Source: Pseudomonadota bacterium (GTDB lineage: Bacteria; Pseudomonadota; Gammaproteobacteria; Xanthomonadales; Rhodanobacteraceae). From it: 64,000 nt of DNA. Location of the stretch: assembly GCA_018240565.1 (NCBI GenBank), contig JAFEFO010000040.1, forward strand, positions 37,000 to 100,999, written 5' to 3'. The position numbers were made by a program. The stretch's first letter is position 1. Each line of letters starts with the position of its first letter. This document shows, one piece after another, positions 30,001 to 33,000 of this stretch.

Positions 30001-33000
30001 CATGACCGATGGCATCCTGCTCGCCGAGACGCAATCCGATCCCTGGCTCAACGCCTACGACACGATCATCCTCGACGAGGCGCACGAGCGCAGCCTGAAT
30101 ATCGACTTCCTGCTGGGTTACTTGAAACGCCTGCTCGCGCGCCGACGCGATCTGAAACTCATCGTCACCTCGGCGACGATCGACACGAGCCTGTTCGCGC
30201 GGCATTTCGATACCGCACCGGTCATCGAAGTCGAAGGCCGCGGCTATCCGGTCGAGGTGCGCTGGCGGCCCATTGAAATGTTCGCGGCCAACGGCCGCGG
30301 CACGCGTCCCTCGCCCGCGAAGCGGGAGAGGGGGGAACCGTCGGCGGATGCCGACGGTGGGGTGAGGGCGGTTGCACGCATCGAGTTGAATGTGGCGGAG
30401 CAGATCGCTGCCGCACTGGATGAAATCACCGCCGAGGATCCGCGCGGCGACGTGCTGGTGTTCCTGCCCGGCGAGCGCGAGATCCGTGATGCGCACCTGG
30501 CGCTGACGCGGCGCCGCTATCGTTCGACGGACGTGCTTGCGCTGTATGCGCGCCTGTCCGCCGCCGAACAGGATCGGGTGTTCAAGCCCGGAGCGGGACG
30601 CCGCATCGTGCTTGCCACCAATGTGGCGGAAACCTCGCTCACCGTGCCGCGCATCAAGTACGTCGTCGACACCGGCACCGCGCGCGTGAAGCGCTACTCG
30701 CCGCGCAACCAGCTCGAACGCCTGCACATCGAGCCGATCTCGCAGGCGGCCGCGGACCAGCGCAAGGGCCGCTGCGGCCGCGTCGGTCCGGGTATTTGCG
30801 TACGCCTGTACAGCGAAGAGGATTTCGCGGCGCGTGCGCGCTATTCCGATCCGGAAATCCTGCGTTCCTCGCTCGCGGGCGTGATCCTGCGCATGTTGAG
30901 CTTGAAGCTCGGCGAGGTCGAGAAGTTCCCGTTCGTCGAAGCGCCAGACGCGCGCGCAATCAATGACGGCTGGCGGCGTTTGTTCGAGTTGCAGGCGGTG
31001 GATGCGGACAAGCGCCTGACGCCGACAGGACGGGAAATGGCGCGCTGGCCGATCGACGTCGCACTCGCGAGGATGCTGATCGAAGCGCAGCGCAAGGACG
31101 CGCTGCGCGAAATGCTGATACTCGCGGCATTCCTGTCGATCCAGGATCCGCGCGAGCGACCCGCCGATGCGCGCCAGGCCGCCGATGCCGCGCATGCGCA
31201 ATGGGCGGATCCGAAATCCGATTTCATCGGCGTGCTCAATCTGTGGCATGCGCATGCCAGCGCGCACGAGGAACTCACTCAATCGAAATTGCGCGACTGG
31301 TGCCGCGAACGGTTCCTTTCGTATTTGCGCATGCGCGAATGGCGCGAGCTGCATCGGCAGTTGTTGTTGATTGGCGGCGAATCCGAAGGACCAACGCCTA
31401 CGTCCCCCTCTCCCCCATTGCGGGCAATGGGGGAGAGGGCTGGGGTGAGGGGGAGGCGCAGCGGTATTTCCGCAACATCGAATCCGCTCGGGATGTCACC
31501 CCCTCACCCAACTCTCTCCCCCAACACGGTTGGGGGAGAGGGCTTGTCCTACGAAGCGATCCACCGCTGTCTGCTCGCCGGCTGGCCAACACAGGTCGGG
31601 CGCCGCGACGAACGCGGCGAGTATCGCGGTACGCGCGAGCGCAAGTTCCGCGTCTTTCCGGGATCGGCCTTGGCAAAGGCGCCGCCGCAATGGTTGCTGG
31701 CCGGCCAGATCATCGACCTGCAAAAAGTCTATGCCATGTCGTGTGCGCGCATCGAGCCGGAATGGGTCGAACAACAGGCCGCGCATCTGGTCAAGAAGTC
31801 ATGGCGCGATCCGCACTGGTCGCGCAAGCGTGGCGCCGTGCTCGCGTTCGAGCAGGTCACGCTGTTCGGCTTGACGCTGGTGGAAAAGCGCAGCGTGGCG
31901 TTTGCCACGCAGGATCCGGCGGCGGCGCATGAGGTGTTCATGCGCGAGGCGCTGGTACGCGGCGATATCGATTGCCGTGCCGATTGCGTGCGCGCGAATG
32001 CGCGGGTGCTCGCGCAGGCGCAGGAACTGGAAGCCAAGCAACGCCGTAGTGGATTGATTCGCGGCGAAGACGAACTTGCCGCATTCTTCTCCGGCAAGCT
32101 GCCCGCGGACATTTCCACCGCTGCCGCGTTCGACGCCTGGTATCGGCGTGCGCCAGCAGCAGAACAGGCGGCGATGCGCTGGTCGCTGGATGATGTTCTC
32201 GCCAGCACGCCGGGTTTGCGCGCGTCGGACTTCCCCGCAACGATGGCCTTTGCCGGCCATCGCCTGAAACTCGAGTACCGTTTCGTGCCGGGCGACGCGG
32301 CGGATGGCGTGACGTTGCAGGTGCCGCTGGCGTTCGTCAATGCGGTATCCGCATTGTCCTGCGATTGGCTGGTTCCGGGATTGCTCGCCGACAAGGTCGC
32401 CGAACTGATCCGCGGCCTGCCCAAGTCCCTGCGCCGCAATTTCGTGCCGGCGCCGGATTTTGCGCGCGCATTCGCGCAAGCCGAGGCGCCGCGCGACGAA
32501 AGCGTCATCAAGGCACTGGCCGGCTATCTGCAACGCGTAACCGGCGTGGAAGTGTCCGAACGCGATTTCGCAGCGATCGAACTACCGGCGCACCTGGCGA
32601 TGCGCTTTCGCGTGCACGACGAGCAAGGCAAGACTCTGGCCGAAGGCCGCGACATCGATGCGCTGCGCGGCGAGTGGGGCGCGGCGGCGAACGCGGCGTT
32701 CTCACGTCATGCCGATGTCGAGTTGGCGCGCGAGGACGTAGCCGAATTCGATTTCGACGAGATCTCGCCCGTGGTGACCGGCGCGGGCGGTGTCGCTGCC
32801 TATCCCGCGCTGGTCGATCTGGGCGAGTCCGTCGCGCTGCGCGTATTCGAGCGTGCCGATGAAGCGCGCGATGCACACGCAGGGGGCGTCGAACACTTGC
32901 TGCGGCGCGCGCTGCGCGAGACGATCAAGCAGGCGAGAAGGCAACTTCCCATCGAGCGCAAGCTGGCCTTGAAATACGCCGGCATCGCCAGCGTCGACGA

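What the first reader, a model, noticed from the sequence alone, without database searches (positions are those of the whole stretch)
31404..31540. A full composite palindromic element is translated in-frame inside the helicase gene hrpA
A complete family A unit (hairpin, GGGGTGAGGGGG, spacer, CCCCCTCACCC, hairpin) lies within the hrpA ORF. It contains no stop and leaves the downstream frame intact. It adds roughly 45 residues (..PTSPSPPLRAMGERAGVRGRRSGISATSNPLGMSPPHPTLSPNTVGGEGLS..) between LLLIGGESEGP and YEAIHRCLLAGW. From my recollection of E. coli HrpA, that position is a linker after the helicase core. In-frame palindromic-element insertions in protein genes are well documented for Rickettsia palindromic elements. 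Seeing the same behaviour in a high-G+C gammaproteobacterium, for a repeat that also occupies intergenic sites in the same window, is noteworthy.
Basis: partly seen in the sequence, partly recalled or inferred. Interest (0 to 1): 0.7.

Follow-up and report, generated by a model that had tools for sequence, protein, structure and literature searches.

The report
BoxC-type palindrome translated inside hrpA
Two inverted copies of a known bacterial repeat (the BoxC or "triplex motif" element) sit in frame in a surface loop of the RNA helicase gene hrpA and add about 45 probably disordered residues; selfish repeats inside genes are already documented, but this loop has been colonised repeatedly across a whole bacterial family.

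Summary
Window 31403-31542 holds two perfect hairpins plus the pair GGGTGAGGGGG/CCCCCTCACCC around a 45-nt spacer, inside an intact 1358-aa HrpA ORF (29501-33577). The closest orthologues lack it. The net gain is 135 nt, or 45 codons.

The site is the loop just after the ratchet helix, equivalent to E. coli HrpA ~N613/S614. AlphaFold2 gives pLDDT below 50 for the insert.

Each half is the known BoxC/PIT/"TM" intrastrand-triplex motif, which in E. coli is always intergenic. The whole is an inverted TM pair.

The same gene carries a second, single-module insert at 30306-30372, in a loop that is disordered in the E. coli crystal structure.

Across 68 related species this loop is empty in 10 and holds inserts in 58. 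These include TM pairs of lineage-specific subtype and at least two unrelated palindromic repeat families.

The arms stay 93-95% identical, including third codon positions, while the spacer and four-fold sites are near saturation. One genome shows exchange with a neighbouring copy.

In a metagenome scan, about a tenth of hits to this motif lay in frame inside real genes.

In-frame palindromic repeats were already reported in Rickettsia, Xanthomonas and Stenotrophomonas. This is a new member of a known kind and moderately interesting.

The parts
29501..33577 (+). hrpA ORF (1358 aa), the intact host gene
   Evidence: TIGR01967 1502 bits. Matches E. coli HrpA structures 9ggr and 6zww. Identical NCBI protein P0001 is annotated HrpA. 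Amino-acid identity to relatives is 0.84 against 0.64 at four-fold sites.
31403..31542 (+). Composite palindromic element: an inverted pair of BoxC/TM-type modules, in frame at hrpA site 2. It encodes about residues 634-680.
   Evidence: Absent from the closest orthologues.
31406..31439 (+). Hairpin 1: CCCTCTCCCCCATTGC / GCAATGGGGGAGAGGG. These are the pyrimidine and purine blocks of the left module.
   Evidence: 16/16 complementary, 2-nt loop. Folded in the MFE structure.
31442..31453 (+). GGGGTGAGGGGG, the third (mirror) block of the left module. It also pairs with 31499-31509.
   Evidence: Matches the GGGTGAGGG block of E. coli TM sequences.
31454..31498 (+). 45-nt non-palindromic spacer, evolving at about the neutral rate
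   Evidence: Spacer identity between orthologous inserts is 0.36-0.62 in the fixed alignment and 0.53-0.67 when realigned pairwise. Arms are 0.93-0.95 between the window and L081 or L002.
31499..31510 (+). CCCCCTCACCCA, the complement of the third block. It belongs to the right module, which is read on the minus strand.
31512..31542 (+). Hairpin 2: CTCTCCCCCAAC / GTTGGGGGAGAG, with flanking bases
   Evidence: 12/12 complementary, 3-nt loop
30306..30372 (+). Second in-frame repeat-derived insert in hrpA (site 1). It is a single TM-like module, CCCTCGCCCGC-gaa-GCGGGAGAGGG, then a 9-bp mini-hairpin, then GGGGTGAGGG. The net gain is about 32 codons (residues about 262-293).
   Evidence: AF2 pLDDT is below 50 for residues 267-295. 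The equivalent E. coli loop 263-272 lacks electron density.
186..338 (.). Intergenic full composite copy of the same family
25659..25772 (.). Intergenic composite copy of a variant subfamily, with a mini-hairpin between the GGGAGAGG and GGGTGAGGG blocks. It lies between two RND transporter genes.
   Evidence: Neighbouring genes inferred from synteny with L081 and L082.

Best explanation
The feature is an inverted pair of BoxC/PIT/TM-type repeat modules. Each module is a CCCTCTCCC...GGGAGAGGG hairpin followed by a mirror block GGGTGAGGG.

**How it came to be there.** This is non-coding, dispersed and probably selfish DNA. It became lodged in a functionally unconstrained surface loop of HrpA, between the ratchet helix and the last helix of the helical-bundle domain. 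It persists for three reasons:
- its length is a multiple of three;
- the G/C-rich blocks are stop-free in two of the three sense frames;
- the loop tolerates any sequence.

The likely protein product is HrpA with a Pro/Gly/Ser/Arg-rich disordered loop of about 45 residues. This is inferred.

**A sink for repeats.** The loop, and a second loop at the start of RecA2, collect palindromic repeats across the Rhodanobacteraceae. Different repeat families have entered them, and some alleles have since decayed.

**Why the arms stay perfect.** They are kept at the nucleotide level, most likely by exchange (gene conversion) with other genomic copies rather than by selection on the protein. The spacer drifts neutrally.

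**Shown:** anatomy, insertion state, loop location, family identity, recurrence, and conservation of arms against spacer.

**Inferred:** the mechanism of arrival (no transposase is known for BoxC/TM), the neutral effect on HrpA, and homogenisation by conversion.
For: **Anatomy and chance:**

**Insertion relative to orthologues**
- The empty 38-aa loop is found in 34 of 120 homologues and in L001, L028 and L011.
- E. coli has the short form.

**Surface loop**
- The AF2 model has pLDDT below 50 for residues 631-680 and 267-295. These are flanked by helices 608-628 and 684-694.
- The domain map comes from PMC8325345. Pfam domains lie on each side.

**Family identity**
- E. coli TM sequences such as CCCTCTCCCTGTGGGAGAGGGCCGGGGTGAGGGC, and their inverted-pair arrangement, match the window's modules.

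**Recurrence**
- Of 68 species with the loop recognised, 10 are empty, 58 carry inserts and 22 are strongly structured with z below -3.
- TM pairs occur at the same loop in Dyella, Frateuria, Rhodanobacter and Dokdonella.
- Unrelated palindromes occupy the same loop: GGGGGTCAGAGTCACTTTTC.. in L079 and GGGAATC-type heptamer arrays in L024, L029, L067 and L080.

**Nucleotide-level maintenance**
- Arms are 0.93-0.95 identical between the window and L081 or L002. Spacers are 0.36-0.62 and four-fold sites 0.57-0.64.
- Third codon positions in the arms are identical at 25 of 28.

**Birth and decay**
- Between L002 and L003 the arms (0.76), spacer (0.78) and four-fold sites (0.78) match, so the L003 arms have decayed.
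- L017, L019 and L020 have decayed within Dyella.

**Intragenomic exchange**
- The hrpA-internal right module of L032 matches a copy just downstream of hrpA at 44/47, sharing derived variants. It matches orthologous modules at 38/43.

**Generality**
- About 14 of roughly 125 metagenomic hits to the motif lie in frame in coding-like ORFs.
- All 10 that were checked have Pfam domains on both sides.

**Stop-free frames:**
Against: - No direct evidence of transcription or translation. The window is from a metagenome-assembled genome.
- No target-site duplication and no clean junction were found. In P0002 versus P0004, about 27 nt of the loop are replaced rather than simply interrupted. A simple cut-and-paste insertion is therefore not demonstrated.
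- No transposase could be linked to the family (PMC4666352 states none is known).
- Filled and empty alleles are interleaved on the HrpA tree: P0002/P0004 and P0039/P0081 are sister pairs with 100% bootstrap. Yet filled alleles share the same junction codon, a 45-nt spacer and, for the window, L081 and L082, a 9-nt deletion. The data do not separate repeated insertion from transfer of one allele by short-patch recombination.
- Conservation of the arms could also reflect selection for structure.
Confidence: 0.8

Rival explanations
1. The palindromic structure is selected for a function inside hrpA. One version: the roughly -97 kcal/mol three-hairpin mRNA structure, or a DNA triplex, modulates hrpA expression. 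Because HrpA is itself an RNA helicase that resolves collided ribosomes, this could act as feedback.
For: - The arms are conserved well above neutral sites and even above the flanking coding sequence, including third codon positions.
- Many orthologues carry some strong palindrome at the same two loops, whatever the repeat family.
- HrpA acts on mRNA at collided ribosomes (PMC11419001).
Against: - 10 of 68 species have an empty loop and about 30 of the 58 inserts are not structured (z above -2). Close sister lineages differ in presence.
- Arms decay freely in L003, L017, L019 and L020.
- The same motif sits in frame in many unrelated genes.
- Intragenomic exchange offers a non-adaptive cause for arm conservation.
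- Purine-motif triplexes do not form in RNA (PMC4666352).
Confidence: 0.1
2. The family-A insert at site 2 entered once, in an early Rhodanobacteraceae ancestor, and was inherited vertically. Empty loops are secondary losses, and lineage-specific arm subtypes result only from concerted evolution.
For: - The same loop is occupied in Dyella, Frateuria, Rhodanobacter, Dokdonella and the Rudaea-like clade.
- The insert is clearly orthologous within Dyella, with shared flanks.
- The Rudaea-like alleles share the same left junction codon and a 45-nt spacer.
- Spacer divergence is compatible with neutral divergence since speciation.
Against: - Empty loops keep the ancestral sequence GWKQNAExAxFE, which is also seen in outgroups and resembles E. 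coli. Imprecise deletions would not restore it.
- Filled alleles are nested among empty sisters with 100% bootstrap.
- At least two unrelated repeat families occupy the same loop, so independent entries do occur.
Confidence: 0.2
3. The insert is retained because the encoded Pro/Gly/Arg-rich peptide gives HrpA a useful new linker or interaction surface. This would be protein-level exaptation, as has been proposed for some Rickettsia palindromic elements.
For: - The reading frame is maintained over long periods.
- The same translated frame (..PSPP..GERAGVRG..PPHPTLSP..GGEG..) recurs in about 20 of 120 homologues.
Against: - Conservation is at the nucleotide level and equal at all three codon positions.
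- The spacer-encoded residues are unconstrained.
- Different lineages read the modules in different frames: GERAGVRG versus GEGRGEG.
- AF2 gives pLDDT of 32-40.
- The insert is absent from sister lineages.
Confidence: 0.05
4. The feature is an assembly artefact of a metagenome bin, or hrpA is a decaying pseudogene.
For: - The window comes from a MAG. Its exact protein has a single cluster member.
- Repeats can mislead assemblers.
Against: - The ORF is full length, with profile coverage to both ends, and the gene shows purifying selection.
- Homologous inserts appear in many independent assemblies and in cultured isolates: Dyella japonica DSM 16301 and Dokdonella soli JCM 15421.
- Gene order around hrpA matches that of relatives.
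Confidence: 0.03

Closest known systems
BoxC / PIT / TM intrastrand triplex motif of E. coli and more than 260 other genomes (Holder et al. 2015, PMC4666352; earlier work by Bergler, Bachellier and Hoyne is cited there)
   Same: - Same three blocks in the same order: CCCTCTCCC, loop, GGGAGAGGG, 2-3 nt, GGGTGAGGG.
- The third block mirrors the purine block.
- Multi-copy and dispersed.
- Often found as inverted pairs on opposite strands.
- Loci are unusually variable between relatives.
   Different: - Here the hairpin is longer: 16 bp with an extra, variable distal stem.
- The inverted pair encloses a 45-nt spacer.
- The element is inside a gene and in frame. The 23 E. coli K-12 copies are all intergenic, and that paper does not discuss coding copies.
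- Triplex formation was not tested here.
Rickettsia palindromic elements (RPE; Ogata et al. 2000 and 2002, as summarised in PMC10969869)
   Same: - Palindromic repeat of about 100-150 bp.
- Present in both intergenic and genic sites.
- Inserted in frame, giving extra peptide segments in otherwise conserved proteins.
- Thought to be compatible with the protein fold.
   Different: - Unrelated sequence and base composition.
- The host here is a free-living, high-G+C soil gammaproteobacterium.
- Conservation here is clearly at the nucleotide level, with a neutral spacer.
- The same two loops of one gene are hit repeatedly, by several families.
Intragenic GTAG/CGTC REPs (Di Nocera, De Gregorio and Rocco 2013, PMC3733652)
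   Same: - REP singletons and dimers sit entirely within ORFs and encode 20-80 residues.
- Reported in many species, including Xanthomonas and Stenotrophomonas.
- Enriched in DNA and RNA enzymes (UvrABCD, RecBCD, DnaE2, RNA helicases).
- Different REPs lie at about the same site of recB in X. campestris and X. oryzae.
- Those authors also suggested location in flexible loops.
   Different: - The copies examined here have no conserved terminal GTAG or CGTC tag.
- No RAYT association was found.
- hrpA is not mentioned in that paper's main text.
GGGNATC heptamer, G-quadruplex-forming repeats of Xanthomonas (Rehm et al. 2015, PMC4692102)
   Same: Arrays of GGGAATC-type heptamers, followed by their inverted complement, occupy the same HrpA loop in L024, L029, L067 and L080.
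   Different: - This is a different family from the one in the window.
- Those repeats are reported as under-represented in coding regions.
Bacterial MITEs (for example Correia, ERIC/RU elements; Delihas 2007, PMC2759123)
   Same: - Similar size, about 140 bp.
- Long terminal inverted repeats.
- Stable hairpin.
- Occasional intragenic, ORF-preserving copies.
   Different: - No target-site duplication was found.
- No parent insertion sequence or transposase was identified.

Membership tests
BoxC / PIT / TM intrastrand triplex motif | Pyrimidine block followed by a complementary purine block (CCCTCTCCC ... GGGAGAGGG) forming a hairpin | tested here: met
   31406-31421 / 31424-31439 are 16/16 complementary. 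Same core as the E. coli TM table.
BoxC / PIT / TM intrastrand triplex motif | Third G-rich block (GGGTGAGGG), mirror-symmetric to the purine block, 1-6 nt after it | tested here: met
   GGGGGAGAGGG-CT-GGGGTGAGGGGG at 31429-31453. Read backwards, the third block aligns G*G, A*A and T*A with the purine block; this was checked by eye on the sequence.
BoxC / PIT / TM intrastrand triplex motif | Stem of 6-15 nt and first loop of 1-6 nt (ITxF search criteria) | tested here: inconclusive
   The loop is 2 nt. The stem is 16 bp because of an extra distal stem (ATTGC/GCAAT) that the E. coli copies lack.
BoxC / PIT / TM intrastrand triplex motif | Multi-copy dispersed repeat, often in inverted pairs | tested here: met
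   Copies at 186-338 and 25659-25772, and in L081 and L032.
BoxC / PIT / TM intrastrand triplex motif | Actual formation of an intrastrand DNA triplex | not testable with these tools
   Needs CD or NMR spectroscopy, or footprinting, as in PMC4666352.
Rickettsia palindromic elements (as a kind: protein-coding palindromic repeat) | Palindromic repeat inserted in frame in a conserved protein gene, absent from orthologues | tested here: met
Rickettsia palindromic elements (as a family) | Sequence homology to RPE-1 through RPE-10 | not tested
   No RPE sequences were at hand. Composition and host make homology very unlikely (inference).
GTAG / CGTC REP superfamilies | Conserved GTAG or CGTC tetranucleotide at one end of the palindrome | tested here: not met
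   The ends of ten copies differ (ACGTCC, TTTGCC, AATTCC, GAGTCC, AACTCC and others). Only the window's hrpA copy happens to have CGTC.
GTAG / CGTC REP superfamilies | Association with a RAYT (Y1 HUH) transposase gene | tested here: inconclusive
   A tblastn search with an E. coli RAYT sequence recalled from memory found nothing credible in the window (best E = 8.7). Only 64 kb of the genome is available. The cores GGGGAGAG and GGGGTGAG do fit the GGGGWSAS motif of TIRYT-flanking repeats; this is an untested lead.
MITE | Terminal inverted repeats | tested here: met
   The two roughly 45-nt modules are inverted copies of each other.
MITE | Target-site duplication flanking the element | tested here: not met
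   Alignments of filled against empty sites show no duplication. About 27 nt of the loop are replaced.
HrpA (host gene) | Full-length match to the TIGR01967 equivalog above its cut-off | tested here: met
   1502 bits against a cut-off of 722.75. Two stretches are split exactly at the insert.

The most novel reading that the evidence does not exclude
The palindromic arms are kept perfect inside hrpA because the structure works in cis on hrpA itself. Ribosomes would have to melt a roughly -97 kcal/mol three-hairpin block in the mRNA of the very helicase that rescues collided ribosomes, which would give a self-sensing feedback loop. The repeated capture of unrelated palindromes at the same two loops would then be convergent selection for structure, not tolerance of junk.
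Probability: 0.07. Interest if true: 0.8.

Novelty: new member of a known kind. Interest (0 to 1): 0.45.

Why it matters
- It extends the "selfish DNA inside protein genes" phenomenon, best known from Rickettsia, to the BoxC/triplex-motif family, which has been described as intergenic.
- It provides a natural map of two loops of the ribosome-rescue helicase HrpA that accept 30-90 extra residues. That is useful for tagging or engineering the protein.
- It offers a clean comparative system. The same orthologous site is empty, freshly occupied, homogenised or decayed in different species, and some of those species are cultured. This makes it possible to study how such repeats arrive, how their arms are maintained, and whether structured DNA or RNA inside an ORF has a cost.
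- Practical point: such inserts inflate protein length, break profile alignments and seed spurious low-complexity motifs in databases.

Tried and rejected
- **Rfam.** No family reached its gathering score in the 64-kb window. With permissive thresholds, only generic long-hairpin microRNA models matched, far below their cut-offs.
- **Recombination import.** Sliding-window identity between the window and six relatives, and fine-scale profiles for filled/empty sister pairs, show no extended divergent tract. Any imported patch would be no more than about 200 nt.
- **Target-site duplication.** None found.
- **RAYT/TIRYT association.** A tblastn probe recalled from memory found no candidate in the window. 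Its only real hit was an unrelated curiosity in L112.
- **Spacer homology as a test of common origin.** It is informative only for window-L081 (0.67) and L002-L003 (0.78). Other pairs are at the shuffle level of about 0.54.
- **Internal terminator or promoter.** None at the element.
- **Intein or intron reading.** Rejected. There are no protein-splicing or ribozyme features, the element is only 140 nt, and it is a member of a dispersed repeat family.
- **Global superposition of the AF2 model on 6zww.** Only TM 0.45, because domain placement differs and the loops are floppy. I therefore rely on per-residue confidence and secondary structure, not on a 3D mapping.
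Full report
**1. The observation**

The sequence at 31403-31542 is as described.
- Hairpin 1, CCCTCTCCCCCATTGC/GCAATGGGGGAGAGGG, spans 31406-31439 and is 16/16 complementary.
- GGGTGAGGGGG (31443-31453) pairs 11/11 with CCCCCTCACCC (31499-31509), with a 45-nt spacer between them.
- Hairpin 2 is 31514-31525 / 31529-31540, 12/12 complementary.

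The core words are strongly over-represented in the window. They occur 9 times against 0.24 expected, and 12 times against 0.63 expected.

As single-stranded RNA the 156-nt region folds into three hairpins at -96.7 kcal/mol, z = -7.3. As DNA it folds at -51.4 kcal/mol, z = -7.8.

The element lies inside a 1358-codon ORF, 29501-33577 (+), with no stop. That ORF is HrpA. It scores 1502 bits against TIGR01967 and aligns along its whole length with E. coli HrpA structures. The alignment breaks at residues about 633-677. An identical protein is annotated as HrpA in NCBI (P0001).

**2. It is an insertion**

I aligned 120 homologues and examined the segment between REWRELHRQLL and YEAIHRCLLSG.
- It is 38 aa (37-40) in 34 homologues, including the nearest relatives of the window.
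- In those it reads ..IAEESGWKQNAEgAsFEAIH.., colinear with E. coli ..KELGIPVNSEPAEYREIH...
- In the window it is 83 aa.

At the DNA level the empty sites of L001, L028 and L011 align with the window on both sides of a 135-nt gain, or 45 codons.

The gene is under purifying selection. Amino-acid identity to relatives is 0.84, against 0.64 at four-fold degenerate sites. Gene order around it (RND pump genes, a ferritin-like gene, hrpA, a 158-aa gene) matches that of relatives. It is therefore not a pseudogene or an obvious misassembly.

**3. Where it sits in the protein**

The published E. coli domain map (PMC8325345) gives:
- helical-bundle (HB) domain, residues 498-630;
- "ratchet helix", residues 588-607;
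- OB fold, residues 631-687.

The insert falls at about E. coli N613/S614. That is the loop directly after the ratchet helix and before the last HB helix. It is inside the HB domain, not in a linker after the core. Pfam places HA2_C at 521-576 and OB_NTP_bind at 687-761 in the window protein.

An AlphaFold2 model of residues 61-801, built with 70 aligned sequences, shows:
- helices at 608-628 and 684-694;
- between them a coil with pLDDT 32-40 (below 50 for residues 631-680);
- a second low-confidence loop at 267-295.

The model's best structural matches are E. coli HrpA entries (E = 1e-64). The global TM-score is only 0.45, so I do not claim a 3D mapping.

**4. A second insert in the same gene**

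Residues about 262-293 (nt about 30290-30390) are also absent from the nearest relatives. The segment is 61 aa in the window against 29 aa in them.

The DNA contains CCCTCGCCCGC-gaa-GCGGGAGAGGG, then a perfect 9-bp mini-hairpin, then GGGGTGAGGG. This layout matches the variant intergenic copy at 25659-25772. It is a single, partly decayed module (fold z = -2.1).

The site corresponds to E. coli residues 263-272, which lack electron density in the crystal structure.

**5. What the element is**

Each half is the BoxC / PIT / "TM" intrastrand triplex motif. The 23 E. coli K-12 copies listed by Holder et al. (PMC4666352) read, for example, CCCTCTCCCTGTGGGAGAGGGCCGGGGTGAGGGC. Five E. coli loci carry two copies in inverted orientation.

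The window's modules have the same three blocks in the same order. The third block mirrors the purine block. They differ from the E. coli copies in having a longer hairpin with a variable distal stem.

That paper reports the following:
- the motif occurs in more than 260 genomes;
- all E. coli K-12 copies are intergenic;
- no link to mobile elements was found;
- TM loci are unusually rearranged among strains.

The element is not a GTAG- or CGTC-tagged REP, because the ends of ten copies differ. It has inverted termini like a MITE but no target-site duplication. Rfam has nothing for it.

**6. The same loops are occupied across the family**

In one genome per species, the site-2 loop was recognised in 68 Rhodanobacteraceae/Lysobacterales genomes.
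- 10 are empty and 58 carry inserts of 48-127 aa.
- 22 of the inserts fold far better than shuffles (z below -3) and about 30 are unstructured.

Inverted TM pairs occupy the loop in Rudaea-like MAGs, Dokdonella soli, Dyella japonica, D. amyloliquefaciens, D. flava, Frateuria and Rhodanobacter glycinis. Each carries the arm subtype of its lineage.

Other palindromes occupy the same loop:
- a GGGGGTCAGAGTCACTTTTC.. palindrome in L079;
- inverted arrays of GGGAATC-type heptamers in L024, L029, L067 and L080. These are the G-quadruplex repeats described in Xanthomonas (PMC4692102);
- a further family, inferred only from peptides (..SLPFKGRAGEG..HPHPNPPLEGEG..).

The GTCAGAGTCA palindrome also sits at site 1 in L005, L006, L029 and L055. 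Independent entries into these loops have therefore occurred. Some alleles carry two elements side by side (L022, P0043).

**7. History of the window's allele**

The filled alleles of the window, L081 (P0002), L082 (P0006), L002 and L003 share the same left junction codon and a 45-nt spacer. The first three also share a 9-nt deletion at the right junction.

Spacer identity is 0.67 for window-L081 and 0.78 for L002-L003. These are close to four-fold-site identity for the same pairs (0.64 and 0.78). Other pairs are at the shuffle level. This fits one allele lineage.

Yet on the HrpA tree filled and empty alleles are interleaved. P0002 (filled) and P0004 (empty) are sisters at 90.9% identity with 100% bootstrap. 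So are P0039 (filled) and P0081 (empty).

Empty loops keep the ancestral sequence, so they are not deletions of a filled allele.

In the sister pairs the flanks stay 0.87-0.98 identical to within about 20-60 nt of the element. About 27 nt of loop sequence are replaced, and there is no duplication.

Either the element enters this spot repeatedly, or a short patch carrying it moves between lineages by homologous recombination. I cannot separate these two.

**8. What is conserved**

Between the window and L081 or L002, the comparison is:

| Sites compared | Identity |
|---|---|
| Arms (87 columns) | 0.95 and 0.93 |
| Flanking codons | 0.84-0.87 |
| Spacer | 0.62 and 0.36 |
| Four-fold sites, gene-wide | 0.64 and 0.57 |
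| Third codon positions within the arms | 25/28 in both pairs |

The insert is plainly orthologous within Dyella. There the arms are 0.79-0.93 identical and spacers 0.37-0.64 among the six species with intact arms. In L017, L019 and L020 the arms have decayed.

Between L002 and L003 the arms (0.76) have diverged as much as the spacer and silent sites (0.78). All the changes are on the L003 side.

The constraint is therefore on the nucleotide palindrome, not on the peptide, and it can lapse.

A non-adaptive cause is visible in Rhodanobacter glycinis. The right module inside hrpA matches a copy just downstream of hrpA at 44/47, sharing derived variants (CACCTCAATCC....GAGGAGG). It matches orthologous modules at 38/43. 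The two L081 copies likewise share an identical distal stem-loop, ATCGCCTGCGAT. This points to exchange among genomic copies.

**9. Generality**

- In about 14 of roughly 125 hits the motif lies in a long open frame with coding-type GC1/2/3 on both sides.
- All 10 that I checked are real genes with Pfam domains on both sides: MnmA, two E2 acyltransferases, a hybrid histidine kinase, RsmB, a UvrD-like helicase, Mfd, an ABC ATPase, DnaE and a DUF5693 protein.

The element is stop-free in two of the three sense frames; the third contains the TGA of GGGTGAGGG. A sizeable fraction of genic insertions would therefore preserve an ORF.

**10. Comparison with what is known, and verdict**

In-frame palindromic repeats are the hallmark of Rickettsia RPEs (PMC10969869). 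Di Nocera et al. (PMC3733652) catalogued them for GTAG/CGTC REPs:
- in many bacteria, including Xanthomonas and Stenotrophomonas;
- with enrichment in DNA and RNA enzymes;
- with one case of different REPs at the same site of recB in two species;
- with the suggestion that they sit in flexible loops.

The present case is the same kind of thing with a different, already named repeat (BoxC/TM) and a new host gene.

I did not find the following described in the papers I read:
- in-frame BoxC/TM copies;
- the scale of recurrence at two loops of one protein across a family;
- the contrast between arms and spacer in an orthologous coding insert.

I rate it a new member of a known kind, with interest about 0.45. 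The adaptive reading, a cis-acting structure in hrpA, is not excluded. It is disfavoured by the empty, unstructured and decayed alleles.

Noticed in passing
window 30306-30372 (hrpA residues about 262-293): A second repeat-derived in-frame insert in the same hrpA gene. It is a single TM-like module with a 9-bp mini-hairpin, in the loop that is disordered in the E. coli crystal structure. The nearest relatives lack it, but more distant orthologues share it together with conserved non-palindromic flanks (IE.YAAAGR ... R.DL..E).
   Followed up: partly
L112 1946-4513 (-), metagenome contig Ga0210398_10013914: A threonyl-tRNA synthetase ORF of 855 aa carries an IS200-like Y1 transposase domain (PF01797, 33.1 bits, residues 367-467) fused in frame in its middle. 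Repeat-like peptides flank the domain. It looks like a RAYT-type gene embedded in an essential gene.
   Followed up: partly
L079 4888-4954; L024, L029, L067, L080 site 2; L005, L006, L029, L055 site 1: Unrelated palindromic repeat families occupy the same two HrpA loops in other species. One is a GGGGGTCAGAGTCACTTTTC palindrome. The other is inverted arrays of GGGAATC-type heptamers.
   Followed up: partly
L202, L096, L174, L144, L170, L124, L102, L176, L167, L131 (metagenome loci): The same BoxC/TM motif lies in frame inside MnmA, two E2 acyltransferases, a hybrid histidine kinase, RsmB, a UvrD-like helicase, Mfd, an ABC ATPase, DnaE and a DUF5693 protein. About a tenth of random environmental hits are genic and in frame.
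   Followed up: partly
L032 4920-4972 versus 7116-7172 (Rhodanobacter glycinis): The TM module inside hrpA shares derived base variants with a copy lying just downstream of the hrpA stop codon (44/47 identical). This suggests gene conversion or recent copying between the two.
   Followed up: partly
L003 4876-5139: This orthologous insert has decayed arms, while its spacer is still 78% identical to that of L002. The palindrome constraint has been lost in this lineage.
   Followed up: yes
HrpA alignment, window residues about 504-508 (nt about 31010-31025), also about 731, about 920 and about 1153-1164: Further positions where subsets of homologues carry insertions of at least 8 residues (15 sequences at about residue 508). 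The window itself has none there.
   Followed up: no
window 186-338 and about 345 onward: The intergenic composite copy ends about 10 nt before an ORF that starts with a prepilin-type N-terminal motif (..GFTLIELLVVVVILAVLAG..). The repeat therefore sits in the 5' leader of a pilin or pseudopilin-like gene.
   Followed up: no
family-wide (cores GGGGAGAG and GGGGTGAG): Both core words fit the GGGGWSAS consensus that Di Nocera et al. report for inverted repeats flanking TIRYT (RAYT-like) transposase genes. This is a possible lead to what mobilises the element.
   Followed up: no
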